DNA of 64,000 bases. It comes from a bacterium. GTDB lineage: Bacteria; Patescibacteriota; 4484-211; GCA-002791395. This document shows positions 29,908 to 42,127 of the stretch, in pieces; the first letter of the stretch is position 1, and every line of letters starts with the position of its first letter. The notes below the pieces were generated by a model, which was not told the DNA's origin, did not search any database, and was given only the letters and a program-made list of their open reading frames with translations. Made by a program: the position numbers and the translations under genes. The stretch is from NCBI GenBank assembly GCA_027002475.1, contig JALWZS010000038.1, positions 46,032 to 110,031 of the forward strand, read 5' to 3'.

Positions 29908-30147
29908 ATGGCAAATACAAAAGAAACTATAGTAAAAAGTGGTGAGGTGCTTGAGACCTTGCCAAATACTATGTTTCGGGTACAATTGGATGGCGAATCT
30001 GAGGGTGATGAAGGGCGAGTGATTACTGCAGTTATTGCAGGAAAACTTAGAAAGCATTACATTCGGATTTTGCCAGGCGATCGAGTTGATGTTGAGTTTT
30101 CACCATACGACTTAGATCGTGGGCGAATAGTATATAGATACAAATAA
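29908..30147 (+). CDS. infA: Translation initiation factor IF-1
   Basis: 79 aa S1-like fold ([14 protein letters not shown]...[27 protein letters not shown]) with a ~8-aa acidic insertion (GESEGDEG). Confidence 0.9.
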
Positions 30148-30148
30148 T

Positions 30149-30262
30149 ATGAAAGTCAGACCATCGGTAAAAAAAATGTGTGATAATTGCAAGATTGTAA
30201 GGCGCAAAGGCGTTGTTAGGGTTATATGTAGCAATCCTAAGCACAAGCAAAGACAAGGTTAA
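30149..30262 (+). CDS. rpmJ: 50S ribosomal protein L36
   Basis: Not in the ORF table (37 aa). Manual translation gives [37 protein letters not shown], canonical L36 with the C-x2-C...C-x4-H zinc ribbon. Sits between infA and rpsM. Confidence 0.8.
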
Positions 30263-30263
30263 T

Positions 30264-30653
30264 ATGGCAAGGATTTTAGGAGTTGATATACCAGATAATA
30301 AAAAGGTTCCTTACGCATTAAGGTACATCAAAGGTGTGGGACCAGCTATTGCCAACGAAGTAGTCGAGCGTTTAGGGTTAGACCCCAACATGCGAGCTAA
30401 AGACTTAACCGAAGAAGACTTAAGTAAGATCGCTAACCTTTTGGATAAAGAATATATTGTAGAGGGTGAACTGATTCGTAGGGTTAAAGATAATATTAAG
30501 CGTTTGATTGACATTAAAAGTTACCGTGGGAAAAGGCATCGACTTAGCCTTCCTGTGCGAGGACAGCGAACAAGGTATAATGCCAGAACTAGAAAAGGGC
30601 CACGTAAGGTGGTGTCTGGTGTTAGTGTAAGAAAAGCTGTAAGTAAGACCTAA
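30264..30653 (+). CDS. rpsM: 30S ribosomal protein S13
   Basis: Start set at MARILGVDIPDNKKV (canonical S13 N-terminus), 1 nt after the rpmJ stop. The table ORF from 30213 is an upstream extension. Confidence 0.9.
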   Translation: MARILGVDIPDNKKVPYALRYIKGVGPAIANEVVERLGLDPNMRAKDLTEEDLSKIANLLDKEYIVEGELIRRVKDNIKRLIDIKSYRGKRHRLSLPVRGQRTRYNARTRKGPRKVVSGVSVRKAVSKT

Positions 30654-30658
30654 AGAAT

Positions 30659-31051
30659 ATGGCTAAAACGAAACCAACAAAGAAAAAAAAGAAAAACCTT
30701 AAATTACCTAAAGAAGGTAAGGTTTATGTAACATCTACGTTTAATAACACAATCCTTACTGTTACTGATGTTGAGGGTAAGGTTATTACATGGGGAAGTG
30801 CTGGTACTGCAGGCTTTAAGGGAACCCGTAAGTCAACGCCTTTTGCAGCAACAACCAGTGCGCAAAAAGTGGCTGATGATATTAAAAGCAGAGGGATGGA
30901 AACTGTTGATATTTACATAAAGGGAATTGGAATGGGGCGAGATGCAGCAATTAGGGCAATTAGAGCTGCAGGACTAGATGTTCGCTCAATTTCAGATATT
31001 AGCCCAATGCCACACAATGGCTGCAGGCCACGCAAGAGACCAAGGAATTAA
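30659..31051 (+). CDS. rpsK: 30S ribosomal protein S11
   Basis: 130 aa. GVAHINSTFNNTI-type core (YVTSTFNNTILTVTD) and C-terminal PHNGCRPRKRPR. Confidence 0.9.
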   Translation: MAKTKPTKKKKKNLKLPKEGKVYVTSTFNNTILTVTDVEGKVITWGSAGTAGFKGTRKSTPFAATTSAQKVADDIKSRGMETVDIYIKGIGMGRDAAIRAIRAAGLDVRSISDISPMPHNGCRPRKRPRN

Positions 31052-31052
31052 T

Positions 31053-31625
31053 ATGGCACGATATACAGGACCAGATAAAAAATATAAGAAGCGTTTTGCA
31101 CTGCTAGCTGACTCGGGAAGTACTGCAAATGCTAGGACTAGGTTTCGCAGAAAATCCGTCTATGGTGTTAGGCTAGAGGAGAAACAAAAGCTTAAATTTA
31201 TTTATGGCGTACTAGAAAAGCAATTTAGGCGATATTATAACGAGGCAAGGCGTGAGGCAGCTAACACTGGTCTTATTTTAATGCGACTTCTTGAGATGCG
31301 GCTTGATAATGTTGTGTATAGACTTGGCTTTGCAAAGACAAGAAGGGCGGCGCGTCAGCTTGTGAATCACGGTCATGTTTTGGTAAATGATAAAAAGGTT
31401 GATATCCCGTCGTATAATGTCAAGGTCGATGACGTCATTACGCTAAAGCAGAAGTCTTTAGAAATTCCAGACGTTAAGAAAATGCTTAATAATGAAGAGG
31501 ATTATACGGTTCCTAGTTGGTTGGCTAGGAAAGGACCGGTTGGTATGGTAAAATCTGTCCCAGCCGAAGATGATATGAGGACTGATGTTGATGTTCAGTT
31601 AATCATAGAGTATTATTCGAGGTAG
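31053..31625 (+). CDS. rpsD: 30S ribosomal protein S4
   Basis: Start set at MARYTGPDKKYKKRF (canonical S4 N-terminus) directly after the rpsK stop. The table ORF from 30978 overlaps rpsK. Confidence 0.9.
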   Translation: MARYTGPDKKYKKRFALLADSGSTANARTRFRRKSVYGVRLEEKQKLKFIYGVLEKQFRRYYNEARREAANTGLILMRLLEMRLDNVVYRLGFAKTRRAARQLVNHGHVLVNDKKVDIPSYNVKVDDVITLKQKSLEIPDVKKMLNNEEDYTVPSWLARKGPVGMVKSVPAEDDMRTDVDVQLIIEYYSR

Positions 31626-31643
31626 TTATTAGCGGTAAATAAG

Positions 31644-32549
31644 ATGAAATACGAAATAAAATACAAAGTAGTTGAAGAACCATCTGCAAACCGACAGATC
31701 GTTGAGATACAGCCACTAGAGCGCGGCTTTGGTCACACTTTAGGGAATGTTTTAAGGCGTGTTATGCTAGGTCACTTATCGGGTGCTGCAATAACTAAGG
31801 TTAAAATTGATGGGATTCAGCATGAATTTTCTCCAATTGCAGGTGTTCACGAAGATGTAGTTGATTTAATCCAAAATCTAAAGAAGGTTGACTTTAAGAT
31901 GGATCAAATTAAAACCCACATTGTTACGCTAAATGCTAGCGGTGCAGGCGAAGTTAAGGCAGGAGATCTTAAATGTCCTACGGGTATAGAGGTTGTTAAT
32001 AAGGATTTACACATTGCAACTCTTTCTGATAAAAAAAGCAAGCTTTCCATGGAGCTAACCGTTGAGTACGGTAAGGGGTATAAATTGCCTGAATCGGTTG
32101 AGAAAAAACAAGTAGGTGTTATCCCAGTTGACGCAAACTTTTCTCCAATTGTGCTTGTTTCATACACAGTTGAAAGCGCTCGTGTCGGTCGAGAGGCAAA
32201 CCTCGATAAGTTGGTTATGGACATTACAACAGATGGTTCGATTGAACCAAAAACTGCTCTGCAACAGGCAAGTGCCATTCTTGTTGAGTACTTCCAACTT
32301 TTAGCGGGAGATACTGAAGTTTATAAGGAGGAGGTTAAGCAAGAAGCAACTCCTGCCGAAGCAAATACTGAAACCAAAGTGTATATAGAGGAATTAGGGC
32401 TTCCAACTCGAGTAATAAACACTCTTAAAAAGGCAGGATATGAGACTGCAGAGGATATCAAAGCGGCGGGTGAATCTGGTCTTGCCAATGTGAAAAACAT
32501 TGGACCAAAGACTGTAGCGTCGTTACTCAAAAAAGTTGAAGAGCTTTAA
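31644..32549 (+). CDS. rpoA: DNA-directed RNA polymerase alpha subunit (short, 301 aa)
   Basis: N-terminal domain signature (PLERGFGHTLGNVLRRVML). Reduced C-terminal domain with an HhH-like segment. Confidence 0.9.
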   Translation: MKYEIKYKVVEEPSANRQIVEIQPLERGFGHTLGNVLRRVMLGHLSGAAITKVKIDGIQHEFSPIAGVHEDVVDLIQNLKKVDFKMDQIKTHIVTLNASGAGEVKAGDLKCPTGIEVVNKDLHIATLSDKKSKLSMELTVEYGKGYKLPESVEKKQVGVIPVDANFSPIVLVSYTVESARVGREANLDKLVMDITTDGSIEPKTALQQASAILVEYFQLLAGDTEVYKEEVKQEATPAEANTETKVYIEELGLPTRVINTLKKAGYETAEDIKAAGESGLANVKNIGPKTVASLLKKVEEL

Positions 32550-32606
32550 TAAAAGTCCTCTTTATTCTATATTCTTCCTCGCGTCTTTACCTGCAGAAAG
32601 GTAAGT

Positions 32607-32984
32607 ATGAATAAAAGAAAAAATACAGTAAAACTAAGCAGAGATAAAGGGCACCGCGATGCGCTTCTTAGAAATATGGCGCAAGATCTTATTTTGCGAG
32701 AGAAAATTAAGACCACATTGGCTAAAGCAAAGGCGTTACGACCGTTTGTTGAGCCATTGATTACAAGAGCACGTGAAGATACTCCACATAACCGCCGATT
32801 GGTGGGTAGGGTTTTGTACACAAAAGAAGCACTCGACAAGTTGTTTAAAGAAGTTGCTCCACGATATCGAGAGCGTAAAGGTGGTTACACTCGTATAGTA
32901 AAATTAGGTGCACGTTCAGGAGATGCTGCCGAAGCGGCAGTAATTATGTTGGTTGAAGAAAAAAAGGAAGATAAAAAGAAATGA
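32607..32984 (+). CDS. rplQ: 50S ribosomal protein L17
   Basis: 125 aa. TLAKAKALRPFVEPLITRA and GGYTRIVKLGARSGDAAEAAVI are canonical. Has a Lys-rich tail. Confidence 0.9.
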   Translation: MNKRKNTVKLSRDKGHRDALLRNMAQDLILREKIKTTLAKAKALRPFVEPLITRAREDTPHNRRLVGRVLYTKEALDKLFKEVAPRYRERKGGYTRIVKLGARSGDAAEAAVIMLVEEKKEDKKK

Positions 32985-33412
32985 AAACGAAAAACGTAGT
33001 AAAGCCAAAAAAAATTGAAAGGAAATGGTATGTCGTTGATGCTAAGGGTAAGGTAGTTGGACGGTTGGCGTCTAAAATCGCTACCGTTTTACAAGGGAAA
33101 AATAATCCATACTATAGTCCACAGTGGGACATGGGAGATCACGTAGTTGTTATAAATTCTGACGAAGTTGTGTTTACAGGTAAAAAGGAAACCGATAAGG
33201 TGTACTATCGCCATACTGGATATCCTGGAGGTATTAAAGGCGAAACCCCACGTGATGTTAGACTTCGGGATTCCCGCTTGATTATTGAACGTGCAGTTAG
33301 GCGCATGCTCCCTAAAAATAAATTAGCTAAAGAGATGATAAAGAAATTGCATGTGTTTAAAGATGATAAGCACACGTATGAGGCTCAAAAGCCACAAACG
33401 CTAGATATATAA
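32981..33412 (+). CDS. rplM: 50S ribosomal protein L13
   Basis: 143 aa. KWYVVDAKGKVVGRLAS... is the canonical L13 N-terminus. Confidence 0.9.
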   Translation: MKTKNVVKPKKIERKWYVVDAKGKVVGRLASKIATVLQGKNNPYYSPQWDMGDHVVVINSDEVVFTGKKETDKVYYRHTGYPGGIKGETPRDVRLRDSRLIIERAVRRMLPKNKLAKEMIKKLHVFKDDKHTYEAQKPQTLDI

Positions 33413-33420
33413 AAACTAAC

Positions 33421-33834
33421 ATGGCAAAAGAAGAAACTAAAAAAGACAAAATAGTTTGGATATCAGGGCGAAGAAAGACCTCTGTTGCTCGAGTAAAAAT
33501 GAGCAAGGGCAAAGGGGCATTTACTATTGATGAGAAAAGCATAGAAGAGGTATTTCCTCAACTCCTTGATAGAGAAAAATTACTTAAGCCGTTTAAGGTA
33601 GCTGGGCGTGACGTAAAAGGTTATGACATTTCAATTAAGCTTTCTGGTGGTGGGAAAAAGAGTCAATTGATTGCTGCACAGTTAGGGCTTGCAAAGGCTT
33701 TGGTTGAAATGGAAGCTAACTTAAGACCACTTCTTAAAGATGCAGATCTTCTAACTCGAGATCCAAGAATGAAGGAGCGAAAGAAATACGGATTGAAGCG
33801 TGCACGTAAAGCTCCTCAATTTAGTAAGAGGTAA
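33421..33834 (+). CDS. rpsI: 30S ribosomal protein S9
   Basis: 137 aa. GRRKTSVARV motif and C-terminal KRARKAPQFSKR. Confidence 0.9.
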   Translation: MAKEETKKDKIVWISGRRKTSVARVKMSKGKGAFTIDEKSIEEVFPQLLDREKLLKPFKVAGRDVKGYDISIKLSGGGKKSQLIAAQLGLAKALVEMEANLRPLLKDADLLTRDPRMKERKKYGLKRARKAPQFSKR

Positions 33835-33898
33835 CCTTTTACTCTCAAGTTAAATCCTACTAAATGAAAAGGCATAGAATTGCCTGCTACGTCGCTAG

Positions 33899-33921
33899 AT
33901 TTAAGAGCTTACCTCTTAAAT
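33899..33921. terminator. Conserved AT-rich hairpin ATTTAAGAG-CTTAC-CTCTTAAAT between convergent rpsI and HD gene (copy 1 of 2)
   Basis: Perfect 9-bp inverted repeat with 5-nt loop, sitting between two convergent stop codons. A near-identical 23-mer is at 57675-57697. Confidence 0.4.
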
Positions 33922-33925
33922 CGAT

Positions 33926-34576
33926 CTATTCTTGATTGATATCTTTTGAAAGTAGCGCGATGTTATACCTAAGCTTTTTAAGTAAAGTGCATTCGGGATA
34001 CTTTTTTTCTATTAATTCTAGATGTTCCTTCCAACGTTTGAGTTTTTCGGTAGGAGAAAAGTGAAAAACACTCCAAGGTATGACCTTACCCTGCTCGAGC
34101 ATCCTAACTAGATCGTTTGTGTTCTCAATCATATCTGCGCATTTGATAAAAAGCGCCTTTTCTGGCGCTTCCTTTAGCCTATCAAAGGAGTCCTGCTTCC
34201 TAAGAGAGCGGTTCTTGATTGTTTTGTCATCAGATAGTGCCCATACAATGTCCGCGATTTCTGGGGTTAGCTCGTATCCGAGTGTTGATTTAGCTACATT
34301 ATTGTTATGCTCTTCGTCGTTTTCGTCTTCTAAAACATCGTGAACAATCGCAGCAGCAATTAACTCATTTGACGCGCCTGCTTGATAGAGAATGTGGGCT
34401 ACTCGTAGTGGATGGATTAAGTATGGAGCATTTTCGATTCTTCTTTTTTTGCCGTTGTGTTTTTTCTTGGCAATTTCTATAGCTTTTGTTATTAACGGGG
34501 AGTTTGGCAGATTACTTATGAGTTTATCGATTTCGTTAGCCATAAATATAGGCAGAATTTTCTCATAAAGAGACAT
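33926..34576 (-). CDS. Stand-alone HD-domain (p)ppGpp hydrolase-like protein (RelA/SpoT-HD / Mesh1-SAH family)
   Basis: 216 aa. APYLIHPLRVAHIL...AAAIVHDVLED matches the RSH hydrolase HD signature (HPLxVA...HDVxED). No synthetase domain. Confidence 0.65.
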   Translation of the reverse strand: MSLYEKILPIFMANEIDKLISNLPNSPLITKAIEIAKKKHNGKKRRIENAPYLIHPLRVAHILYQAGASNELIAAAIVHDVLEDENDEEHNNNVAKSTLGYELTPEIADIVWALSDDKTIKNRSLRKQDSFDRLKEAPEKALFIKCADMIENTNDLVRMLEQGKVIPWSVFHFSPTEKLKRWKEHLELIEKKYPECTLLKKLRYNIALLSKDINQE

Positions 34577-35431
34577 CTAGTGCAAAGTATTTTTCCGGTA
34601 CCACTCGAACAAGAATTGACCTGCATAAAGGGCATACCCGCCAAACTGTTGCTTGGTAAACTCACGGTATTCTTGATACTTTAAGTTTCCTGATAAGCCG
34701 TAAAGATCTACTAATATTCGTTTTCCCCATACATCCATTGGCGTTACGTTCTCAAACCCTGCAGCAAATGCCAGTACGCAGTCCGCAATTTTATCTCCGA
34801 CTCCATGAAGTTTTAGTAACTCTTCTCTTAACTTAGTTTCATTCATCTGTAAATATCTTTCACTTAGTCGTTTTTCCGTTAGTAATTTGGCAGTTTCTTT
34901 TAAGTATTTTGCTCGAAATCCTACACTTGTTTTTTGTAGGTCTTTGATGCTAAGAGATGCAATCTTTTTAGCGGTAGGGAATAAATTGACCTTGCCTATT
35001 CCTGGAATATTTATCTTTTCTCCAAATAGCTTAGAAAGTTTCCTAACCGATCTTCGAATAGATTTTATATTGTTATTTGCAGAAATAATAAAAGTTAGCA
35101 CCGTGTAGTTAAACGGTTGTTTTAAGACTCTTATGTTAGGGTGTGTTTTTATGGCTTTCGCAATTATTGGATCTTGTTTGATAGTTTCAATTATTTTCAT
35201 ATAGTCTTTTTTTATTTGAAAGTACTCTTTTATAAAGCTAAGGTCGTTTTGTTTAGGATATGTTTGCCAATAAAGAGTATCTTTTGTTGGTCTAATGACG
35301 ATAGCATTGGTGTCTGTTGTTCCAAGGTAAGTTTTATTATCAGACAATTTATCCCAGCTAAATGACTGTCCTCCAAGCAAGGTTAAGTCGTAATTGAAAT
35401 CGGTTAACGGAATTTTATTAAAGCTAGCCAT
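34577..35431 (-). CDS. HhH-GPD DNA glycosylase/AP lyase, Ogg-like (8-oxoguanine)
   Basis: 284 aa. HhH-GPD signature LKLHGVGDKIADCVLAFAAG...TPMDVW (Lys and Asp catalytic pair). Abuts the HD gene with no gap, so likely an operon. Confidence 0.7.
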   Translation of the reverse strand: MASFNKIPLTDFNYDLTLLGGQSFSWDKLSDNKTYLGTTDTNAIVIRPTKDTLYWQTYPKQNDLSFIKEYFQIKKDYMKIIETIKQDPIIAKAIKTHPNIRVLKQPFNYTVLTFIISANNNIKSIRRSVRKLSKLFGEKINIPGIGKVNLFPTAKKIASLSIKDLQKTSVGFRAKYLKETAKLLTEKRLSERYLQMNETKLREELLKLHGVGDKIADCVLAFAAGFENVTPMDVWGKRILVDLYGLSGNLKYQEYREFTKQQFGGYALYAGQFLFEWYRKNTLH

Positions 35432-35464
35432 AGTTTTTAATTATAGCGTTAAAAAGTAACTTGC

Positions 35465-35493
35465 TTGACAAGGGCGACGCTATGGGTTAGTAT
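35465..35493 (+). promoter_or_regulatory. Near-consensus sigma70 promoter (TTGACA-N17-TAGTAT)
   Basis: TTGACA at 35465-35470, 17-nt spacer, TAGTAT at 35488-35493. Drives the small ORF plus a structured ~250-nt leader upstream of the ABC transporter. Confidence 0.5.
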
Positions 35494-35522
35494 GCTTGCG
35501 CCCCATGATTACAAATAAAAAT

Positions 35523-35639
35523 ATGACAACAAAACAAATTAAACAATTAATAAGGGTTGAAGTGGCTGTAGCTACCTTAAGCCTTGCCTGCGCTGGCTAC
35601 TGTAGTCGGCACATACTTTCGGATCCGCCTCGTCATTAA
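35523..35639 (+). CDS. Hypothetical 38-aa small ORF (possible leader or precursor peptide) in the ABC-transporter 5' region
   Basis: ATG..TAA giving MTTKQIKQLIRVEVAVATLSLACAGYCSRHILSDPPRH. Begins ~25 nt after the predicted TSS. No clear SD. Followed by an 11-bp bulged hairpin (gtaccgacttgc-atta-gcaagcggtac at 35650-35676). Confidence 0.25.
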   Translation: MTTKQIKQLIRVEVAVATLSLACAGYCSRHILSDPPRH

Positions 35640-35741
35640 CCGGAAACTGTACCGACTTGCATTAGCAAGCGGTACGGCTAAACGGTCTTTTAAAACTAAA
35701 TATCTAGTCTTTTTTCCATATTTCACTCATAGGAGGCAGAA

Positions 35742-37490
35742 ATGTCTGCAATTCGTGCTTTACTCGAGGTTTTTGCTGTCTTTTGGGACATCGTCAAATC
35801 GGTCAGGAGGAGTTTCTACTTTTTCTTTGTACTGATTGTTGTCTATCAAGTGGTGAGTATCGTTGATACGTATGTACTAACATACTCAATCGAGTTTGTC
35901 GGCAAGCATAACGATTGGCAAAGTATTGCTGTTCTCGTTTTGGCGGTATATCTGTTTGACGAGTTTTTCAATCGTTATGACAACTACGTGGATTGGATAA
36001 TTATCATCAAGATTCTTAATCCTATCTACGTATACGTTAAGAAGATGACGCTAGATAGGTTTCTTAGCATGGACTTGTCTTGGCATCATCGCCAACGCTC
36101 TGGAGACCTTTTAACACGTGTTCAGCACGGAATCGACAAGCTGGACTCCATGGCGAACGACATTAGCTGGGAGTTAGCACCGACATTAGTTCAGTTCGTG
36201 CTCTCACTGGCTCCTCTCCTGTGGTTCAGCCCAATCTCGGCAGGGATTCTTGTTCTTTCGCTGCCGCTCTTTTTGCTGTTGTCCGTAAAAAAGCACAGGG
36301 CACAAAAGGAGCTACGCAAAGTTCGACACGACCACTACGCAGAAACTGGAGCGATTGCAATGGAGGCAGTAAACCACATCTCTACTGTTCAACTGTATTC
36401 GTTGCAAGAGCGCTTCATGGGCATGCTTAAAAACTCTCTTCAGATAATCACTGACGCGTTAACGAAAGAGGTTCATCTCGGGATCTATCGCTATGGTCGC
36501 TGGCAAAACCGCATTACGACGTGGGCTAAGCGCGCTGTAATGTTTCTTCTGATCTTACAGGTTCAACGTGGCGAAATAACCTTAGCTCAAGTGATCTTCC
36601 TCTGGGCAATTGTGGAAAAGCTTGTTCACTCGTTTTGGCGATTTGGTAGGTTGTATGACCATGCAGCCGATTCGTCGGAGGCGATATCAAGACTAGCTAA
36701 AATTCGTGATCTTAACTCCGGGATTAGTGTAGGTTCGCGCAATGCGCTTCCTGAGGACAAAACGCTTGAGCTTAACGGTGTTTCCTTTGCTTATAACGGT
36801 GGGGGCGACGCCTTAACTAACGTAACTTTTGGCTTCCAAGCAGGTAAGAGTTATGCCCTGATTGGTCCTTCTGGGGCAGGCAAATCAACGCTTGTTAAGC
36901 TTTTGATGCGCCTTATTGAGCCAACGCAGGGTGTTGTTACTCTCGGCGGAATCGATGTTAAAGAGTTTGGGCTTGAGAGCTTACGCTCTCTTTTCGCTGT
37001 TGTTGAGCAGGAGCCACCTGTAATCAATGACACGATTGCAGCAAACATTGCCTTGGGTAGTAGGAATGCTTCGTTTACTCAAATTGTAGCAGCGGCAAAA
37101 GCAGCCGACTTGCACGGTACGATTGAAGCGATGCCTGAGGGTTACGACACGAACGTTGGCGAGCGTGGTGTCCATCTATCTGGAGGACAAAAGCAACGTC
37201 TTGCAATCGCTCGTGCCTTTTTGCGAGATGCCCCGTTTCTGGTACTCGATGAACCTACCTCCGCATTGGACTCAGTTACGGAGAAGCGCATTCAGGAAAC
37301 TCTCAACGCCTTTCTAACTGACTCCGCAAAGACGGTCATAATCATTGCCCATCGCCTCTCTACAATTCGACATGTGGACGAGATAATCGTTTTGGACAAC
37401 GGGCGGGTTGTAGAGCAAGGCTCTCACAAAGAGTTACTTGCCCGTGGTGGTCTTTATGCCACTATGTGGTATGAGCAAGTAGGAGATTAG
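35742..37490 (+). CDS. ABC transporter, fused permease/ATP-binding protein (exporter type)
   Basis: 582 aa. N-terminal 6-TM domain with no C39 peptidase domain. Walker A GPSGAGKST, signature LSGGQKQRLAIARAF, Walker B LVLDEPTSALD. SD ggagg upstream. GC content visibly higher than the neighbours. Confidence 0.85.
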   Translation: MSAIRALLEVFAVFWDIVKSVRRSFYFFFVLIVVYQVVSIVDTYVLTYSIEFVGKHNDWQSIAVLVLAVYLFDEFFNRYDNYVDWIIIIKILNPIYVYVKKMTLDRFLSMDLSWHHRQRSGDLLTRVQHGIDKLDSMANDISWELAPTLVQFVLSLAPLLWFSPISAGILVLSLPLFLLLSVKKHRAQKELRKVRHDHYAETGAIAMEAVNHISTVQLYSLQERFMGMLKNSLQIITDALTKEVHLGIYRYGRWQNRITTWAKRAVMFLLILQVQRGEITLAQVIFLWAIVEKLVHSFWRFGRLYDHAADSSEAISRLAKIRDLNSGISVGSRNALPEDKTLELNGVSFAYNGGGDALTNVTFGFQAGKSYALIGPSGAGKSTLVKLLMRLIEPTQGVVTLGGIDVKEFGLESLRSLFAVVEQEPPVINDTIAANIALGSRNASFTQIVAAAKAADLHGTIEAMPEGYDTNVGERGVHLSGGQKQRLAIARAFLRDAPFLVLDEPTSALDSVTEKRIQETLNAFLTDSAKTVIIIAHRLSTIRHVDEIIVLDNGRVVEQGSHKELLARGGLYATMWYEQVGD

Positions 37491-37499
37491 AGTAGCCTA

Positions 37500-37534
37500 A
37501 GGGGTGTGTGCCTTAAGCGCACGCCCCTTTTTTC
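37500..37534 (+). terminator. Rho-independent terminator after the ABC transporter
   Basis: 12-bp stem aggggtgtgtgc/gcgcacgcccct (two G-U pairs), loop cttaa, followed by a T6 run. Confidence 0.65.
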
Positions 37535-37554
37535 ATTTGTATGAAGTAGAGTCC

Positions 37555-38256
37555 TTAGTTCAGATTATAAGTTTCTTCCCAGAAGATCTTCATGTTTGTT
37601 TGTACAAGGGCGTCTGTGTGGAAGATCGCATGAATGTTGTTTACTTTGATAGTACTGTGTATTTCCTGACTTAGGATACTCTCTAGCTCTTTGACTACAA
37701 TTGCAAAATCTACGTTTGGCGTTTGAATATCTCCAATAGTAAGATGTGCCTTAAAATTTTCAAATATTCGATAATATCCGTACCTGACCAGGAACTCTTG
37801 GTCTTTCTGGCTAAGTTCGTTGTTTTTGCACCTTATCAAATCCTTTTCGCGTATTTCGTTCGTATGAAACTTGTCTAATAAGTTGGTAAAAAGCATGTGC
37901 TTTTCTAATAGATTGGCACCTGTTACTGGTAGATAAACAAACCCATTGTCTTTAACTTCGATTCCGCCGATTTGCACCGTGAAAGCAGGCATATTGGAAA
38001 CAAGGCTTGTTAGTGCTTGCTGTACGTCTGTAAGGTGTGACTCTTTTAACGGTGTTATCGCATATGTTATATGAGGAGTCGGTGTGTTGTACGTACTGTT
38101 GTAGCGTTTAGCTAAAAATTCTTTGGCTTGTTTTATCCTGTCCTTATTAATCTTGGAAGCAATTGAAAAGACAGTATTTATGACATTAAGTTTCGTACCA
38201 TTAATAATTGCTTCTTCCATACGCAGGAGAATAACAAGTTCTAATTCGCAAGGCAA
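37555..38256 (-). CDS. 2H phosphoesterase family protein (LigT-like 2'-5' RNA ligase / cyclic phosphodiesterase)
   Basis: 233 aa with two H-x-T-x motifs (PHITYA and AHLTIG) at the spacing typical of the 2H superfamily. Confidence 0.5.
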   Translation of the reverse strand: MPCELELVILLRMEEAIINGTKLNVINTVFSIASKINKDRIKQAKEFLAKRYNSTYNTPTPHITYAITPLKESHLTDVQQALTSLVSNMPAFTVQIGGIEVKDNGFVYLPVTGANLLEKHMLFTNLLDKFHTNEIREKDLIRCKNNELSQKDQEFLVRYGYYRIFENFKAHLTIGDIQTPNVDFAIVVKELESILSQEIHSTIKVNNIHAIFHTDALVQTNMKIFWEETYNLN

Positions 38257-38318
38257 CTTTTTGCAATCGTATTTCTCACTGCCGGCTAGTTCTAACCGGC
38301 AGGACAGAAACAGACAAA

Positions 38319-39119
38319 CTACTCTAGGTATTTGTCGATGACTGCTTTAATGACAGCATACGGTTGTGCACCTACAACCATTTCTCCTTCAAACTCACCA
38401 GAATCTGTATTCTTACCGATGAAGAATGTAGGAGTGCCTGTAGCTCCATATTTTTGCGCGTCGGCAAGGTCGTTTTGGACCTCGTCTTTGTACTTCTCTG
38501 AGTCCAAACACTGCTTAAACTTATTTGCGTCAAGACCTAGGTCTTTTGCGATTGTGTACAACTCCGACTTTGGCATTCCATTTCCATTTGAGTTGGTTTT
38601 GTTAAATATCTCGTCATGATACTTAAAATATGTTTCGTCATCGCCTTGCTCGCGGGCACAGTTGGCAGCTATGGCTTCCTGTGTGGCTAGTGGATCATGA
38701 AACGAAAGAGGTAAGTCGCGATATACGTATCTTAATCTTCCTGTATCTATATAGTCGCTTTTGATTTGTGCAAAAGATTGCGTAAAGTACCGCTTACAGA
38801 AAGGACATTCGTAATCACTAAAATCCACCATTACTACTGGTGCATTTGTGTCACCAATGGCTGGGTCGTCGTCAACTGAGACAAGAACGTTTGTTGGCTG
38901 TTCTTGTTGTGGTGCTTGAGCATTGTTCCCTTGAGGTGCTTGATTGTTTGATGGTGTGGTTGTAGTGTTATTGGAATTAGCTCCATTAAGTCCGAAAAAT
39001 AATGCAACGGAGATAAGTACACCCGTTATAATTATTGCAATTGGTACGCCAAGAGCGTTATTCGGTGATGTTGCAGTGGTTTGTTGTGTGTTTGTTGTGT
39101 CTTCATTCATAGCCTTCAC
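38319..39119 (-). CDS. DsbA-like thiol:disulfide oxidoreductase, membrane-anchored with low-complexity linker
   Basis: 266 aa. N-terminal TM, Asn/Thr/Gln-rich linker (NNTTTTPSNNQAPQGNNAQAPQQEQ), thioredoxin fold with CPFC active site. Confidence 0.7.
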   Translation of the reverse strand: MKAMNEDTTNTQQTTATSPNNALGVPIAIIITGVLISVALFFGLNGANSNNTTTTPSNNQAPQGNNAQAPQQEQPTNVLVSVDDDPAIGDTNAPVVMVDFSDYECPFCKRYFTQSFAQIKSDYIDTGRLRYVYRDLPLSFHDPLATQEAIAANCAREQGDDETYFKYHDEIFNKTNSNGNGMPKSELYTIAKDLGLDANKFKQCLDSEKYKDEVQNDLADAQKYGATGTPTFFIGKNTDSGEFEGEMVVGAQPYAVIKAVIDKYLE

Positions 39120-39126
39120 CCCCTTT

Positions 39127-39903
39127 CTACTTGATAAAGTGAATAATTCGATCTTGTATGTTTATGGTTAAATCAAATGCACCAATTTTAGTGAGGAATA
39201 TGCTTAAGACGTTGATGTCCCGTGCCAAAAGAAATATTCCACCAATTGTTAAAAACAAAAGCCCAGATACAAACTGGGTGCTGTGCCATGCAAGTTTTTT
39301 GCTTCTAACATTAAAACTGATGGTTTTTCCAATTACGGTTTTTCGTATGAATGTGGAAGTGCGTAGGAACCAACTAATAAGTAGCAGTGGAATGAAAATG
39401 CCCATAATGTAAAACGATAAAAGAATGACCGCTATGTGAGTACTTTGAGTAGCTGCTGATAGGGTTAGGATTGCTCCGATTATCGGACCTGCACACGGGC
39501 TCGATCCAATGCCAGATATTATTCCCAGCAAAAAAGGTCCAGCGTGCTTTAGACCTTGTACGTTTTGGGCTTTGTTTAGTAGCCCAGATAGAATGGGAAT
39601 GTTTACGTGTTTTCCAATAAGGATGTAAACTCCTGCGGATATGAATACTAAACCTGTTAAGATTCCAACAAATGTGGGGTTTGGCCTAATCAATCGGGCG
39701 AGCGTTGCCGCTCCTAGTGCTAAGGGTATGTATATAATGGCAAGTCCCAGCGCAAACAAAAAAGTTGCCTGCAATAACTTTATTTTTCCATTGAAGGTGT
39801 AAGCAAAGTAGCTAGGGAGCACCATCGCCGTACAGGGCGAGAAAAAAGAGAGAGCGCCTCCTACAATGGAAATTATGGCAAGGAGAAGAACGGATGTAAA
39901 CAT
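39127..39903 (-). CDS. ccdA: Cytochrome c biogenesis/thiol-disulfide transporter CcdA (DsbD transmembrane domain)
   Basis: 258 aa, 6-8 TM. GGALSFFSPCTAMVLP motif with the conserved Cys pair. Confidence 0.75.
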   Translation of the reverse strand: MFTSVLLLAIISIVGGALSFFSPCTAMVLPSYFAYTFNGKIKLLQATFLFALGLAIIYIPLALGAATLARLIRPNPTFVGILTGLVFISAGVYILIGKHVNIPILSGLLNKAQNVQGLKHAGPFLLGIISGIGSSPCAGPIIGAILTLSAATQSTHIAVILLSFYIMGIFIPLLLISWFLRTSTFIRKTVIGKTISFNVRSKKLAWHSTQFVSGLLFLTIGGIFLLARDINVLSIFLTKIGAFDLTINIQDRIIHFIK

Positions 39904-39939
39904 AACTACTAAAGAGTTTAGTAGTTATGTTTGATTAGG

Positions 39940-40839
39940 TCAAGGGGCAGGCGTGTGGCATGCGGTATGTTTTGTACTGTTGAAAACATGAGTGTTGTTA
40001 GCAAACCCACCAATGCTGTTTGAAAAAACAACTAGTATAAGTGCAATAAGGACAAATGAAAGAAAAGCCTCCTTGCTAACCCTAGTTAGTTTGGCTACTT
40101 CTTCAGCATCGTTTGATACAAGCAATTCAACTCGTTCTTGTTGCATTGCACTAAATGCGACGAGGTGGGGTAAAGTATGTGTTGGGTTAGACAGTTTGGC
40201 GAGCGCGCAAAGAAGATGACGTTCGCCTACGTTTTTTATTGCAAAACTATCTGCCTCAAGCTCAATTGCAACAAGAAATGAATGCTCTATGCGAAAGAGG
40301 ACGTTTTTAATAAATGGAACCATTTTGAGTGGTAAGAGAAGTGCTTGCATAAGTAACGTTTTGAGTGATGCAAATGTTTTTGCATGATGTTGTTCGTGTG
40401 TTATGACACTAAGAAGTTCTTGTGTACTAAGTGAGTTTAGCAATGCGGACGATATGTAGATCGTAGGGCGAATAATCCCAGCACAATAAGAAAAAGGTTT
40501 TGTTGTGGGCACAACTTTTATTTTGTTTTTAATGGGTATGTTGAGGTTATTGTTTTCTGACATTTGGAGGAATGGCTTTGTTGGGATTTTTTGTGAGAGG
40601 GTTTTATATTTTAAGGCTTTGTATAACAAGTAAAAGGTGGCAGTCAGCAAGATGAAAACTAATGCTACTACTGTTAAGAACGTGGAGTATTCAGTTAGTA
40701 GTGTGTTTATTAGCGTTGTACATAATCGCAATGCTTCAGGGAATATATGTAATACTAGTTTGAGTAACTGCGCAACTAGTAAGCCTAGAAGCAGGTTGGT
40801 GCTAAATACTACAACTAACAAAAAAGTGCTTTTCGACAT
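39940..40839 (-). CDS. M56-family (BlaR1-like) membrane zinc metallopeptidase, sensor domain absent
   Basis: 299 aa, 4 TM. HEQHH (HExxH) zinc motif in the BlaR1/MecR1 arrangement. Directly downstream of the BlaI-like repressor. No extracellular penicillin-binding sensor domain. Confidence 0.65.
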   Translation of the reverse strand: MSKSTFLLVVVFSTNLLLGLLVAQLLKLVLHIFPEALRLCTTLINTLLTEYSTFLTVVALVFILLTATFYLLYKALKYKTLSQKIPTKPFLQMSENNNLNIPIKNKIKVVPTTKPFSYCAGIIRPTIYISSALLNSLSTQELLSVITHEQHHAKTFASLKTLLMQALLLPLKMVPFIKNVLFRIEHSFLVAIELEADSFAIKNVGERHLLCALAKLSNPTHTLPHLVAFSAMQQERVELLVSNDAEEVAKLTRVSKEAFLSFVLIALILVVFSNSIGGFANNTHVFNSTKHTACHTPAP

Positions 40840-40842
40840 GAT

Positions 40843-41211
40843 TTACAGTTTTGCGAGTTTAGAAATGAGTTTGTCCCTTAGATCCTTAGGAAGTCCTTCG
40901 ATCCCTGCAGCAAACTGATTTAGGGCTACTTCGCCAAACTGGTTAAAGAGCTCTTCTACCGTTAATGTAACTCGTTCTGTTGCAAATTGCTCTTTTGTAT
41001 GCTTAGGAGAATACACATACGCTTTGTTTCTTCTAGATCGAGTTAAGTGACCTTTCTTATAAAGGATATCTAGCATTGTCATCACTGTTGTGTATGCAAC
41101 CTTTTTCTTTTTCAGGAGGTTGTTTAGTACGTCTCGTACTGTGCTAGGACCTTGTTCCCATATTATTTCCATGATTTCTCGTTCGGCGTCGGTTAAATGG
41201 AGGGTTTGCAT
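40843..41211 (-). CDS. BlaI/MecI/CopY-family winged-helix transcriptional repressor
   Basis: 122 aa. LTDAEREIMEIIWEQGPSTVRDV...YTTVMTMLDILYKKGHLTR matches the penicillinase-repressor family. Confidence 0.75.
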   Translation of the reverse strand: MQTLHLTDAEREIMEIIWEQGPSTVRDVLNNLLKKKKVAYTTVMTMLDILYKKGHLTRSRRNKAYVYSPKHTKEQFATERVTLTVEELFNQFGEVALNQFAAGIEGLPKDLRDKLISKLAKL

Positions 41212-41299
41212 TTAACTACTATACCACATCGTAGCCTTTGGCTTAGATGCTTTATTATTAGTCTTGTGGGTTGGTCTAAGTTCTTGTACAATTTTAAAT

Positions 41300-42127
41300 A
41301 TGGAAGGTAGAGATAACGATAACCTTAAGGTAAACGCCGCACCAGAAGCCCAAAAAGATAACAGCAGGGAACAAGAAGAGAAAAAGCCATTTCCACTACT
41401 TTTAGTTATAGTAGCACTACTTGGTATCGCGGTTGTTGTAGGAGGTTTGTTTATATTAACCTCTAGCTCAAAAGATGAAACAGATTCTAACACTAGTGGT
41501 AAATCGCCGACTGTTGCAGTAAAGCCTTCTGATAGTGTGAAAGAAGAGGTTAAGCTACCTGAATACGAATCTGTTGGTAGTGCAAAGGCGTTAGACGAAA
41601 TTGTTAAGAGCGCACAGGAATGGGGCGGTGATGTTAAATTTGTAACTTGTTCAGGACTAGTTCTTCCCCACCGAGTGGGGGATGTTCAATACTACATCGG
41701 TGGCAATGACGGGACGTTCCCTTTATGGAGTTGTACTGTTTACTCTCCAAGTAAAAAGCAGGATACTGAAGTAGAGTGGTATAAAGGAACGGTTGAAGTT
41801 AAAGAACCTCATACAACTTGGGGTGCGCCAGGTGCCTCTGCTTATGAACAAGACCCAGATTCTAGGATATTTTATGATCCTGAGGTCTTTACTGATACGA
41901 CTACTTTAATCCCATTACTAAAGGAACAAGGAGTTGATTTCTCTAATGAATATATAACCTTTGCTTTTGGGTTCTACGGTGCGCAAAAAATATATAGCAG
42001 TAAACCAGTTTGGCAGGTAGACGTATATAGCCGAAACGAGAAGGACGACCCGACCGACAAGTATTCCCAGGGTAAAAAACTTAGAATGATTTTTATAGAT
42101 GGTCCATCTGGAGAGGTCTTAGACTAA
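41300..42127 (+). CDS. Hypothetical membrane-anchored exported protein
   Basis: Start chosen at MEGRDNDN (the table ORF starts 36 nt upstream). Charged N-terminus, one TM (LLLVIVALLGIAVVVGGLFIL), ~200-aa exported domain. No known domain. Confidence 0.45.
   Translation: MEGRDNDNLKVNAAPEAQKDNSREQEEKKPFPLLLVIVALLGIAVVVGGLFILTSSSKDETDSNTSGKSPTVAVKPSDSVKEEVKLPEYESVGSAKALDEIVKSAQEWGGDVKFVTCSGLVLPHRVGDVQYYIGGNDGTFPLWSCTVYSPSKKQDTEVEWYKGTVEVKEPHTTWGAPGASAYEQDPDSRIFYDPEVFTDTTTLIPLLKEQGVDFSNEYITFAFGFYGAQKIYSSKPVWQVDVYSRNEKDDPTDKYSQGKKLRMIFIDGPSGEVLD

What the first reader, a model, noticed from the sequence alone, without database searches (positions are those of the whole stretch)
35440..37540. GC-richer islet with a consensus sigma70 promoter, a 38-aa Cys-containing small ORF with structured leader, and an ABC exporter
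This segment is visibly more GC-rich (~50% by eye) than its flanks (the 2H-phosphoesterase and Ogg genes are ~37-40%). It begins with a near-perfect TTGACA-N17-TAGTAT promoter. The predicted transcript starts with a 38-codon ORF (MTTKQIKQLIRVEVAVATLSLACAGYCSRHILSDPPRH), then an 11-bp bulged hairpin, then ~60 nt, then a strong SD and a half-size ABC exporter (TMD-NBD). The unit ends in a strong terminator. Possible readings are an exported peptide with its dedicated pump, a leader-peptide attenuation system sensing the exporter's substrate, or a horizontally acquired efflux cassette.
Basis: partly seen in the sequence, partly recalled or inferred. Interest (0 to 1): 0.6.

Follow-up and report, generated by a model that had tools for sequence, protein, structure and literature searches.

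The report
Leader-ORF-controlled ABC exporter cassette
A self-contained gene cassette in a WWE3 (candidate phyla radiation) bacterium carries its own promoter, a short upstream reading frame that ends at the foot of a very stable RNA hairpin, an ABC exporter and a terminator; this layout recurs in every related locus examined and most resembles the ribosome-sensing leaders that switch on drug pumps such as BmrCD.

Summary
GC is overstated. The ABC gene is 47.1% GC against a gene mean of 41.0% (z 2.2). GC3 is 48.5% against 35.6% (z 3.1), rank 1 of 49, and the rise starts only after about 36000.

The ABC protein belongs to a small CPR-only clade (WWE3, Woesebacteria; at most 43% identity to the window protein). 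All 11 loci examined (8 lineages) share one layout. It comprises a TTGAC[AG]-N17-TAnnnT promoter, an SD-less ATG uORF of 18-46 codons, a stable hairpin close to the uORF stop, and a strong SD before the ABC gene. Peptide sequences are not conserved and the window peptide has no homologue. The exported-peptide reading is therefore rejected.

In several lineages the RNA has the parts of a classical ribosome-dependent attenuator. These are an antiterminator or anti-hairpin pairing, SD sequestration, U-tract terminators, and compensatory changes in the hairpin. In the window only the uORF-plus-hairpin geometry is significant; its alternative pairing and SD sequestration are not above chance.

Best reading: a leader-ORF attenuator of the BmrB-BmrCD type on a probably acquired cassette. 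It is a new member of a known kind, of moderate interest.

The parts
35465..35493 (+). Sigma-70-type promoter: TTGACA, 17-nt spacer, TAGTAT. The predicted transcription start is near 35500.
   Evidence: scores it 10 of 12. An equivalent TTGAC[AG]-N17-TAnnnT promoter lies 150-325 nt upstream of the ABC start in all 11 homologous loci. No other promoter-like site lies on the + strand between it and the ABC start.
35500..35550 (+). Unstructured, A-rich 5' end of the transcript. It contains both candidate uORF start codons (35505 and 35523) and no SD.
   Evidence: Folding gives an MFE of 0 kcal/mol. Neither ATG has an SD, but only 32 of 58 long ORFs in the window have even a 4-mer SD.
35505..35639 (+). 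Upstream ORF (leader ORF) of 44 codons, or 38 codons from ATG 35523. It encodes MITNKNMTTKQIKQLIRVEVAVATLSLACAGYCSRHILSDPPRH and ends in TAA at 35637-35639.
   Evidence: Searches show the ORF. A + strand ATG ORF of 18-46 codons sits in the same position in 11 of 11 loci. Testing ORF length against shuffles and combining over 8 lineages gives Fisher p = 1.5e-3. Individual p values are only 0.03-0.36, and 0.066 for the window.
35551..35613 (+). Two hairpins inside the second half of the uORF: H1 at 35551-35586 and H2 at 35589-35613.
   Evidence: Searches give -25.3 kcal/mol, but z is only -1.73 (14 of 200 shuffles fold as well). The H2 3' arm (AGUCGGCAC) can pair with the H3 5' arm (-11.7 kcal/mol), which is not above chance (z -0.58).
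35639..35686 (+). Very stable two-tier hairpin H3 that begins on the last base of the uORF stop codon. It is followed by CUUUUAAAA (35687-35695), a weak U-tract.
   Evidence: One search gives -24.3 kcal/mol, z -5.65 and 0 of 200 shuffles. The terminator scan did not call it, because only 4 of the 8 following bases are T. An equivalent hairpin starts -22 to about +26 nt from the uORF stop in the 10 related loci.
35731..35736 (+). Strong Shine-Dalgarno sequence AGGAGG, 5 nt upstream of the ABC start codon.
   Evidence: One search shows the sequence. Only 10 of 58 ORFs in the window have an SD this strong. The leader contains no significant anti-SD: the best duplex is -11.7 kcal/mol against a shuffled mean of -13.3.
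35742..37490 (+). Half-size ABC exporter (transmembrane domain plus nucleotide-binding domain) of 582 aa, type IV / ABCB-like. It is the GC3-rich part of the islet.
   Evidence: PF00664 scores 2.5e-21 and PF00005 scores 1.8e-30. No NCBIfam subfamily reaches its cutoff. The nearest solved structures are ABCB1, ABCB19 and Atm1 types. GC is 0.471 and GC3 is 0.485.
37499..37539 (+). Intrinsic terminator that closes the unit: a 13-bp stem with 8 G-C pairs, then TTTTTTCATTTG.
   Evidence: It is the top-ranked terminator-like site in 30000-42000.

Best explanation
The segment is a self-contained, probably horizontally acquired expression cassette for a homodimeric ABC exporter. The exporter's synthesis is probably gated by a translated leader ORF.

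Proposed mechanism. A strong promoter fires at about 35500. Ribosomes load on the unstructured, SD-less (near-leaderless) 5' end and translate a 38-44 codon uORF. The uORF stop codon is embedded in the foot of a -24 kcal/mol hairpin that is followed by a short U-run. The position and speed of the ribosome on the uORF decide whether this hairpin forms behind RNA polymerase. When it forms, it causes termination or a block before the ABC gene. When the ribosome is stalled or sits at the 3' end of the uORF, the hairpin is prevented or melted and read-through into the ABC gene follows. Ribosome-targeting compounds are the most likely cause of stalling. This is the logic of BmrB-BmrCD, erm and cat leaders.

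Shown: the anatomy, its conservation across the ABC clade, the explicit attenuator parts in sister lineages, and the compositional anomaly.

Inferred: that the uORF is translated, that the hairpin terminates or blocks expression, what the inducing signal is, what the exporter's substrate is, and that the cassette was acquired horizontally.
For: (1) All features are present at the stated coordinates.

(2) The ABC protein belongs to a small CPR clade of about 25 clusters. In all 11 loci from 8 lineages the same order recurs: promoter, ATG uORF of 18-46 codons, hairpin near the uORF stop, strong SD, ABC gene. In 10 of 11 loci the uORF opens at the first ATG after the predicted start. Minus-strand ATG ORFs of at least 18 codons occur in only 4 of 11 loci. 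The ORF-length test combined over lineages gives p = 1.5e-3.

(3) Peptide sequence is not conserved. In the Woesebacteria trio non-synonymous changes outnumber synonymous ones, yet the frame stays open across 18-30 nucleotide substitutions per pair and an in-frame 3-nt indel. This fits a requirement for translation rather than for a particular peptide.

(4) Sister lineages carry full attenuator parts:
- Anti-hairpin (2:3) pairing between a uORF segment and the 5' arm of the hairpin has z -3.1 to -4.5 in L084, L087, L088, L089 and L170. It is seen as alternative folds when a ribosome footprint is imposed.
- U-tract terminators are present in L089 and L175.
- An anti-SD at or just after the uORF stop pairs with the ABC SD in L084, L087, L088 and L170 (z -2.2 to -4.6). 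L173 and L176 show the same pairing in the MFE folds and on reading the sequence.
- In the hairpin, 6 of 11 pairs carry compensatory changes and 91% of cells are paired.

(5) In the window the 5' 51 nt are structure-free. SD-less starts are common in this genome. No second promoter lies between the hairpin and the ABC gene, so ABC expression needs read-through.

(6) BmrB has nearly the same geometry: a 53-codon leader ORF ending 119 nt upstream of bmrC, with induction by 50S-targeting drugs through ribosome-mediated transcription attenuation (PMC4191407). In the window the uORF ends 102 nt upstream of the ABC start.

(7) Evidence for acquisition:
- GC3 has z = 3.1 and ranks 1 of 49.
- The cassette has its own promoter and terminator.
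- Its neighbours differ in every lineage, and a serine recombinase lies next to one homologue.
- The host is WWE3 by EF-Tu, and relatives with 90-98% EF-Tu identity are in the database. Even so, no ABC homologue exceeds 43% identity.
Against: For the window itself the mechanistic parts are weak.

- The uORF length alone is not significant (p = 0.066).
- The putative antiterminator pairing is at chance (z -0.58).
- No anti-SD is detectable.
- In equilibrium folds the hairpin stays formed for almost every imposed ribosome position.
- The U-tract has only 4 U and fails the terminator scan.
- The uORF has no SD, and translation is unproven.
- A covariance model of the Woesebacteria-type leader does not hit the window leader. 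The link to the well-supported attenuators is therefore one of architecture, not detectable homology.
- The expression platform differs between lineages, so one mechanism may not apply to all.
- The transmembrane domain of the clade has about 42 invariant residues. This argues for a specific substrate rather than a promiscuous drug pump, and so weakens the guess that antibiotics are the inducer.
- ABC genes are GC-richer than their flanks in all 10 homologous loci as well. The GC excess could therefore be a property of the gene family rather than a sign of recent transfer.
Confidence: 0.5

Rival explanations
1. The leader is a purely RNA-level element, and the small ORF is incidental or untranslated. 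H3 and the in-ORF hairpins would then act as an mRNA stabiliser, a processing site, a constitutive partial terminator, or the expression platform of an undescribed riboswitch.
For: - ORFs of this length arise by chance in 3-36% of shuffled leaders.
- The uORF has no SD.
- Conservation in the Woesebacteria-type leaders is at the nucleotide and structure level, while substitutions in the uORF are spread evenly over codon positions.
- H3 is the only individually significant feature of the window leader.
Against: - A + strand ATG ORF is present in 11 of 11 loci, usually from the first ATG after the start, and always ends near the hairpin.
- The frame is kept open through many substitutions and an in-frame indel.
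- The 5' third of the window leader is completely unstructured and A-rich. That suits ribosome loading and does not suit an aptamer.
- No Rfam family matches the leader in the window or in 9 related loci.
- There is no conserved aptamer-like core across lineages.
Confidence: 0.25
2. The small ORF encodes a functional small protein. It would be either a secreted peptide or bacteriocin-like substrate of the ABC exporter, or a small membrane partner of it in the manner of AcrZ or CydX.
For: The ORF is co-transcribed immediately upstream of an exporter. The window peptide has a moderately hydrophobic core with two Cys (VAVATLSLACAGYC). ORF presence is conserved.
Against: - The exporter has no C39 peptidase domain. 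The peptide-exporter models TIGR01193 and TIGR03796/7 score 232-258 bits against cutoffs of 524-853.
- The peptide has no double-glycine leader.
- It has zero hits in 1.84 billion representative proteins and no Pfam or NCBIfam family above cutoff.
- Peptides of sister loci are unrelated in sequence, charge and hydrophobicity; the L083 peptide, for example, is highly basic and polar.
- In the closest trio non-synonymous changes outnumber synonymous ones.
- No modification or immunity genes lie nearby. The neighbours are Ogg, an HD hydrolase, a 2H phosphoesterase and DsbA/DsbD-like genes.
Confidence: 0.07
3. Nothing regulatory is present. On this reading it is an ordinary constitutively expressed ABC exporter gene with a long 5' UTR, and the shared layout in relatives is inherited baggage.
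For: The window's SD appears accessible and no significant alternative structures were found. H3 lacks a proper U-tract.
Against: - Long leaders of 150-300 nt are maintained in 8 lineages of genome-reduced bacteria.
- The hairpins are strong (z -5.65 in the window).
- Compensatory changes occur in the hairpin.
- Anti-hairpin and anti-SD pairings are significant in sister lineages.
Confidence: 0.15

Closest known systems
bmrB-bmrCD of Bacillus subtilis: ribosome-mediated transcriptional attenuation of a multidrug ABC exporter (Reilman et al. 2014, PMC4191407)
   Same: Both have a promoter, a short leader ORF (53 codons in BmrB, 38-44 here) ending about 100-120 nt upstream of the ABC start (119 nt versus 102 nt), a stable hairpin at the 3' end of the leader ORF, and a type IV ABC exporter downstream. 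Sister loci L089 and L175 have a genuine U-tract terminator, and L089 also has an antiterminator that overlaps the uORF.
   Different: - There is no sequence similarity between the leaders.
- The exporter here is a single half-transporter (presumed homodimer) of a CPR-specific clade, not a BmrC/BmrD heterodimer, and BmrCD is not among its 60 closest solved structures.
- In BmrB the terminator lies inside the coding region, whereas here the hairpin starts at the stop codon.
- The window's U-tract is weak and its antiterminator is not significant.
- The uORF is SD-less and near-leaderless.
- Induction has not been tested.
Translation-attenuation leaders of ermC, ermB, cat and cmlA: a stalled ribosome on a leader peptide frees a sequestered SD (from established knowledge, and as summarised in PMC4191407 and PMC5418344)
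   Same: In L084, L087, L088, L170, L173 and L176 the ABC SD is paired with an anti-SD located in or just after the last uORF codons. A ribosome held at the end of the uORF would therefore expose the SD.
   Different: The window shows no significant SD sequestration. No conserved arrest motif is shared among the leader peptides. The downstream gene is a membrane exporter, not a ribosome methylase or an acetyltransferase.
Generic type IV (ABCB/MsbA-like) bacterial half-transporters
   Same: The protein has the PF00664 plus PF00005 architecture with a canonical Walker A (GPSGAGKST), signature (LSGGQKQR), Walker B with catalytic Glu (LVLDEPT) and H-loop (AHRL). Its best NCBIfam similarities are to MsbA-related, HepA, glucan and HlyB families.
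   Different: It reaches no subfamily cutoff. It belongs to a small CPR-restricted clade with unusually many invariant residues in the transmembrane domain, including DNxxDW, SWH and HSFWRFxRL. The substrate is unknown.

Membership tests
Leader-peptide (ribosome-mediated) attenuators | A short ORF in the 5' leader, between the promoter and the regulated gene | tested here: met
   The uORF lies at 35505/35523-35639. An equivalent uORF is present in 11 of 11 homologous loci. The combined ORF-length test gives p = 1.5e-3.
Leader-peptide (ribosome-mediated) attenuators | A terminator or SD-sequestering hairpin downstream of, or overlapping, the 3' end of the leader ORF | tested here: inconclusive
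   Hairpin H3 is highly significant (z -5.65) and abuts the stop codon. Its U-tract has only 4 U and is not called by the terminator scan. The SD is not sequestered. The feature is clearly met in sister loci: terminators in L089 and L175, and SD sequestration in L084, L087, L088, L170, L173 and L176.
Leader-peptide (ribosome-mediated) attenuators | A mutually exclusive alternative (antiterminator or anti-hairpin) pairing that involves the translated segment | tested here: inconclusive
   In the window the best pairing is -11.7 kcal/mol with z -0.58, which is at chance. A single imposed ribosome position (codon 18) dissolves H3 in the MFE fold. The pairing is significant in L084, L087, L088, L089 and L170 (z -3.1 to -4.5).
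Leader-peptide (ribosome-mediated) attenuators | The leader ORF is translated, and downstream expression responds to ribosome stalling | not testable with these tools
   This needs reporter fusions, toeprinting, Term-seq or ribosome profiling.
Peptide/bacteriocin ABC exporters with a cognate precursor (PCAT / SunT type) | An N-terminal C39 peptidase domain on the transporter, or membership of a bacteriocin-exporter subfamily | tested here: not met
   Only PF00664 and PF00005 match. TIGR01193 scores 234.8 bits against a cutoff of 523.85, and TIGR03796 scores 257.5 against 853.3.
Peptide/bacteriocin ABC exporters with a cognate precursor (PCAT / SunT type) | A conserved precursor peptide with a double-glycine or other recognisable leader | tested here: not met
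   The peptide has no family hits and 0 homologues in 1.84 billion representatives. Peptides in sister loci are unrelated.
Riboswitch / known cis-regulatory RNA family | A match to a described family, or a conserved ligand-binding core | tested here: not met
   No Rfam match lies in the leader at E <= 10 in the window or at E <= 1 in 9 related loci. A covariance model of the Woesebacteria-type leader does not transfer to the other lineages.
Type IV ABC exporter (ABCB-like half-transporter) | A 6-helix ABC_membrane domain fused to an ABC ATPase domain with intact Walker A, Walker B, signature and H-loop motifs | tested here: met
   Searches show the domains and the invariant motifs. Solved relatives are ABCB1, ABCB19 and Atm1.
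Horizontally acquired islet | Composition or codon usage deviating from the host genome | tested here: met
   GC has z 2.2 and GC3 has z 3.1, rank 1 of 49 genes. Caveat: the ABC homologues are GC-richer than their flanks in all 10 other loci as well.
Horizontally acquired islet | Absence from the syntenic site in close relatives, or mobility genes or flanking repeats | tested here: inconclusive
   No ABC homologue exceeds 43% identity, although WWE3 relatives with 90-98% EF-Tu identity are in the database. The genomic context differs in every lineage. The window has no mobility gene, and its only flanking repeat is a chance-level 9-mer.

The most novel reading that the evidence does not exclude
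The cassette is one representative of a CPR-specific, horizontally mobile 'sensor-plus-pump' module. In it the translating ribosome on an SD-less or leaderless uORF would be the sensor for a specific ribosome-directed compound or metabolite. Different lineages would have wired the same uORF-hairpin core to different outputs: an intrinsic terminator in some, and SD sequestration by an anti-SD in the last uORF codons in others. That would make it the first described regulated resistance or export circuit in candidate phyla radiation bacteria. Possible links are to the repeatedly neighbouring nucleotide phosphoesterases, and in Woesebacteria to the position inside the S10 ribosomal operon.
Probability: 0.2. 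Interest if true: 0.6.

Novelty: new member of a known kind. Interest (0 to 1): 0.4.

Why it matters
Candidate phyla radiation bacteria have tiny genomes, few recognisable regulators and almost no experimentally characterised gene regulation. A promoter-uORF-hairpin leader conserved in front of one exporter clade across WWE3, Woesebacteria and related lineages gives a concrete and testable cis-regulatory circuit in these organisms.

The sister loci offer natural variants of one design, with transcription termination in some and SD occlusion in others. If the inducer is a ribosome-targeting compound, these episymbiont-like bacteria would be sensing and pumping out antibiotics. If the cassette really moves between lineages, it would also be a mobile resistance-type unit within the CPR. 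If not, the finding is still a well-documented example of an ordinary bacterial regulatory strategy.

Tried and rejected
- Rfam was searched at permissive thresholds on the window leader and on 9 related loci. Nothing matched in any leader.
- The metagenome scan with the family alignment was dominated by the Walker A pattern. It returned only unrelated ABC exporters of at most 35% identity over long matches and yielded no usable orthologous loci.
- The genome scan with the single protein likewise returned only distant ABC genes.
- An equilibrium 'ribosome-footprint scan' of all leaders was tried. The hairpin stays formed for nearly all positions and the SD accessibility changes were small and noisy, so it gives no clean switch prediction.
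- Automated hairpin and anti-SD detection mis-assigned several loci (L173, L175, L176). For these I relied on the MFE folds and direct reading of the sequence.
- SD sequestration in the window was tested through 5'-end:SD pairing (p about 0.06) and through the best anti-SD anywhere in the leader. Both are at chance.
- A covariance model built from the Woesebacteria-type leaders recovers only its training set. It misses the window, L083, L177, L175 and L176, so leader homology to the window cannot be claimed.
- A coding signature (dN/dS-like) in the closest uORF trio showed no purifying selection on the peptide.
- Flanking direct repeats as insertion scars gave only a 9-nt match with a chance probability of about 0.09.
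- The peptide searches returned nothing: no NCBIfam hit, only a sub-cutoff Pfam match, and no hit among 1.84 billion representatives.
Full report
**Observation**

The window averages 41.3% GC.
- The promoter is TTGACA-N17-TAGTAT at 35465-35493, scoring 10 of 12.
- The ATG ORF at 35523-35639 has 38 codons. An in-frame ATG at 35505 gives 44 codons.
- A hairpin lies at 35639-35686.
- The SD AGGAGG lies at 35731-35736.
- The ABC gene lies at 35742-37490 and encodes 582 aa with PF00664 and PF00005 domains.
- The strongest terminator-like site of the neighbourhood lies at 37499-37529.

The GC claim is real but overstated.
- The ABC gene is 47.1% GC, against a mean of 41.0 +/- 2.8% for 49 long ORFs (z 2.2).
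- GC3 is 48.5% against 35.6 +/- 4.2% (z 3.1). The gene ranks first on both measures.
- The leader and the first 260 nt of the gene are at background; the rise is in 36001-37500.
- Promoter-like matches are not enriched locally: 20 were found against 26.6 expected. The promoter alone therefore means little.
- The hairpin is individually significant at -24.3 kcal/mol, z -5.65, with 0 of 200 shuffles folding as well.
- The whole leader folds better than shuffles (z -2.85).

**Host and ABC family**

EF-Tu encoded at 5240-6424 is 85-89% identical to EF-Tu proteins named as candidate division WWE3. Unnamed relatives at 90-98% identity also exist. The host is therefore a WWE3 (CPR) bacterium.

The ABC protein is a generic type IV half-transporter. 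Its motifs are canonical, no NCBIfam subfamily reaches its cutoff, and the closest solved structures are ABCB1, ABCB19 and Atm1 types. Its nearest homologues are only 36-43% identical. They form a small clade of about 25 clusters, and the named members come from WWE3 and Woesebacteria.

**Comparative anatomy**

I recovered DNA for ten further loci of this clade, which together with the window represent eight lineages: L083/L177, L084/L087/L088, L089, L170, L173, L175 and L176. Every locus has the same order of parts:
- a TTGAC[AG]-N17-TAnnnT promoter 150-325 nt upstream of the ABC start;
- an ATG ORF of 18-46 codons on the ABC strand, opening at the first ATG after the predicted start in 10 of 11 loci;
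- a stable hairpin starting between -22 and about +26 nt of the uORF stop;
- a strong SD and the ABC gene.

The uORF start has no SD. In the window, L083, L177 and L176 it lies within about 0-5 nt of the predicted start, so these mRNAs would be near-leaderless.

ORFs of this length are not rare in shuffled leaders (individual p 0.03-0.36; 0.066 for the window). Combined over the eight lineages, p = 1.5e-3. Minus-strand ATG ORFs of comparable size occur in only 4 of 11 loci.

The peptides share no sequence. The window peptide has no homologue among 1.84 billion representative proteins and no family hit. In the three closely related Woesebacteria loci, substitutions are spread evenly over codon positions and non-synonymous changes outnumber synonymous ones. 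The frame nevertheless stays open through 18-30 nucleotide substitutions per pair and a 3-nt indel. This pattern fits selection for being translated, or for RNA structure, and not for a peptide product.

**Attenuator parts in sister lineages**

The leaders of L084, L087, L088, L170, L089 and L173 can be aligned. Their post-uORF hairpin has compensatory changes at 6 of 11 pairs with 91% of cells paired, far above the shuffled and slid controls.

A uORF segment (GCCACGGC or CCGUGGCG) pairs with the 5' arm of that hairpin much better than chance. The z scores run from -3.1 to -4.5, and the L089 pairing is -22.4 kcal/mol. The alternative fold appears when a ribosome footprint is imposed.

L089 and L175 have canonical U-tract terminators. 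In L084, L087, L088 and L170 an anti-SD in the last uORF codons or just after the stop pairs with the ABC SD (z -2.2 to -4.6). L173 and L176 show the same pairing in the MFE folds and on reading the sequence. These loci are textbook ribosome-dependent attenuators, with either a transcriptional or a translational output.

**The window itself**

The first 51 nt of the predicted transcript are completely unstructured and A-rich. SD-less starts are common in this genome: only 32 of 58 ORFs have even a 4-mer SD. Translation of the uORF is therefore plausible.

The stop codon is embedded in the foot of H3, so a terminating ribosome must open the base of the hairpin. No promoter-like site lies between H3 and the ABC gene, so ABC expression needs read-through past H3.

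The remaining attenuator parts are not demonstrable here.
- The best anti-hairpin pairing (H2 3' arm with H3 5' arm) is at chance (z -0.58).
- There is no significant anti-SD.
- The U-run after H3 has only four U.
- The covariance model of the Woesebacteria-type leader does not match the window leader.

The window thus shares the architecture with the well-supported attenuators, but no detectable homology.

**Mechanism proposed**

At confidence 0.5, the ribosome's progress on the leader ORF controls whether H3 forms and blocks or terminates expression before the ABC gene. This is the logic shown experimentally for bmrB-bmrCD. There a 53-codon leader ORF ends 119 nt upstream of bmrC and responds to 50S-targeting antibiotics (PMC4191407).
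- Shown: the anatomy and its conservation.
- Inferred: translation of the uORF, terminator function, the inducer and the substrate.

The roughly 42 invariant residues in the transmembrane domain of the clade hint at a specific substrate. The idea that antibiotics are the inducer is therefore a guess by analogy.

**Acquisition**

Several results favour an acquired cassette.
- GC3 is an outlier.
- The unit has its own promoter and terminator.
- The genomic context differs in every lineage. In Woesebacteria the cassette sits between rpsJ and rplC, in other lineages it lies next to Lon or GreA, and in one it lies next to a serine recombinase.
- No ABC homologue exceeds 43% identity, although close WWE3 relatives are present in the database.

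Two caveats apply. ABC homologues are GC-richer than their flanks in all ten other loci too, so the GC excess could be a property of the gene family. The syntenic site in relatives could not be retrieved.

**Rivals**
- A pure RNA leader with an incidental ORF (0.25) is hard to square with ORF presence in 11 of 11 loci and with the unstructured 5' third of the leader.
- A functional or exported small protein (0.07) fails every test applied.
- An unregulated long 5' UTR (0.15) does not explain the conserved, covarying structures.

**Verdict**

This is a new member of a known kind of regulation in a poorly studied group of bacteria, and it is of moderate interest.

Noticed in passing
L084 3558-5734; L085-L088 (the same arrangement): In Woesebacteria the uORF-ABC cassette lies on the opposite strand between rpsJ (S10) and rplC (L3). 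It interrupts the otherwise contiguous S10 ribosomal-protein operon. In L089 the cassette is next to an RRM protein and a BipA-like GTPase.
   Followed up: partly
window 33926-34576 and 37555-38256; L083 1574-2227; L084 5823-6716; L170 4488-5921; L173 5209-5709: Genes next to members of this ABC clade are repeatedly nucleotide phosphoesterases. Metallophosphoesterases occur in three lineages, two of them co-directional and immediately downstream of the ABC gene. NUDIX hydrolases occur in two lineages. The window has a 2H phosphoesterase and an HD_4 hydrolase. This may hint at the substrate or pathway, but enrichment was not tested.
   Followed up: no
window 35742-36750 (transmembrane domain of the ABC protein): The transmembrane domain of the clade has about 42 invariant residues at only 31-40% overall identity. 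They include the motifs DNxxDW, SWH..SG and E(K/R)LxHSFWRFxRL. This is unusual for promiscuous multidrug pumps and suggests a specific substrate.
   Followed up: partly
window 35622-35639: The window uORF ends ...S-D-P-P-R-H-stop. DPP is a class of motif known to stall ribosomes without EF-P. A ribosome paused there would have its leading edge at the foot of hairpin H3. The motif is not conserved in the uORFs of other lineages.
   Followed up: no
window 35468-35485 and 37604-37621: An imperfect direct repeat (ACAAGGGCG exact; 78% over 18 nt) brackets the cassette, with one copy in the promoter spacer and the other inside the 2H-phosphoesterase gene. The chance probability of such a 9-mer is about 0.09, so it is probably fortuitous.
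   Followed up: partly
L084 3876-3945; L088 2377-2446: In the Woesebacteria-type leaders the in-uORF hairpin (GUGGYUAUUUUURCCAC) is close to the reverse complement of the post-uORF hairpin (GUGGUAAAAACCAC), with complementary loops. The covariance model therefore also hits the reverse strand. The two hairpins can merge into one long duplex, which makes a neat built-in switch.
   Followed up: partly
window 38319-40839 (minus strand): Downstream of the cassette lie a DsbA/thioredoxin-like protein with a long low-complexity N-terminal region, a DsbD-type membrane protein and a BlaR1/M56-M48-like membrane peptidase. Together they look like an envelope redox and signalling cluster in a WWE3 genome.
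   Followed up: no
window, all long ORFs: Only 32 of 58 long ORFs have even a 4-mer SD-like sequence upstream, and only 10 have a strong one. SD-independent initiation therefore appears common in this WWE3 genome, and the ABC gene is among the minority with a strong SD.
   Followed up: partly
window 12059-15211: This 1050-aa ORF has no Pfam match at E <= 1e-5. It is followed by a 721-aa protein with a weak GH5 cellulase match. Both are among the GC-richer genes of the window.
   Followed up: no
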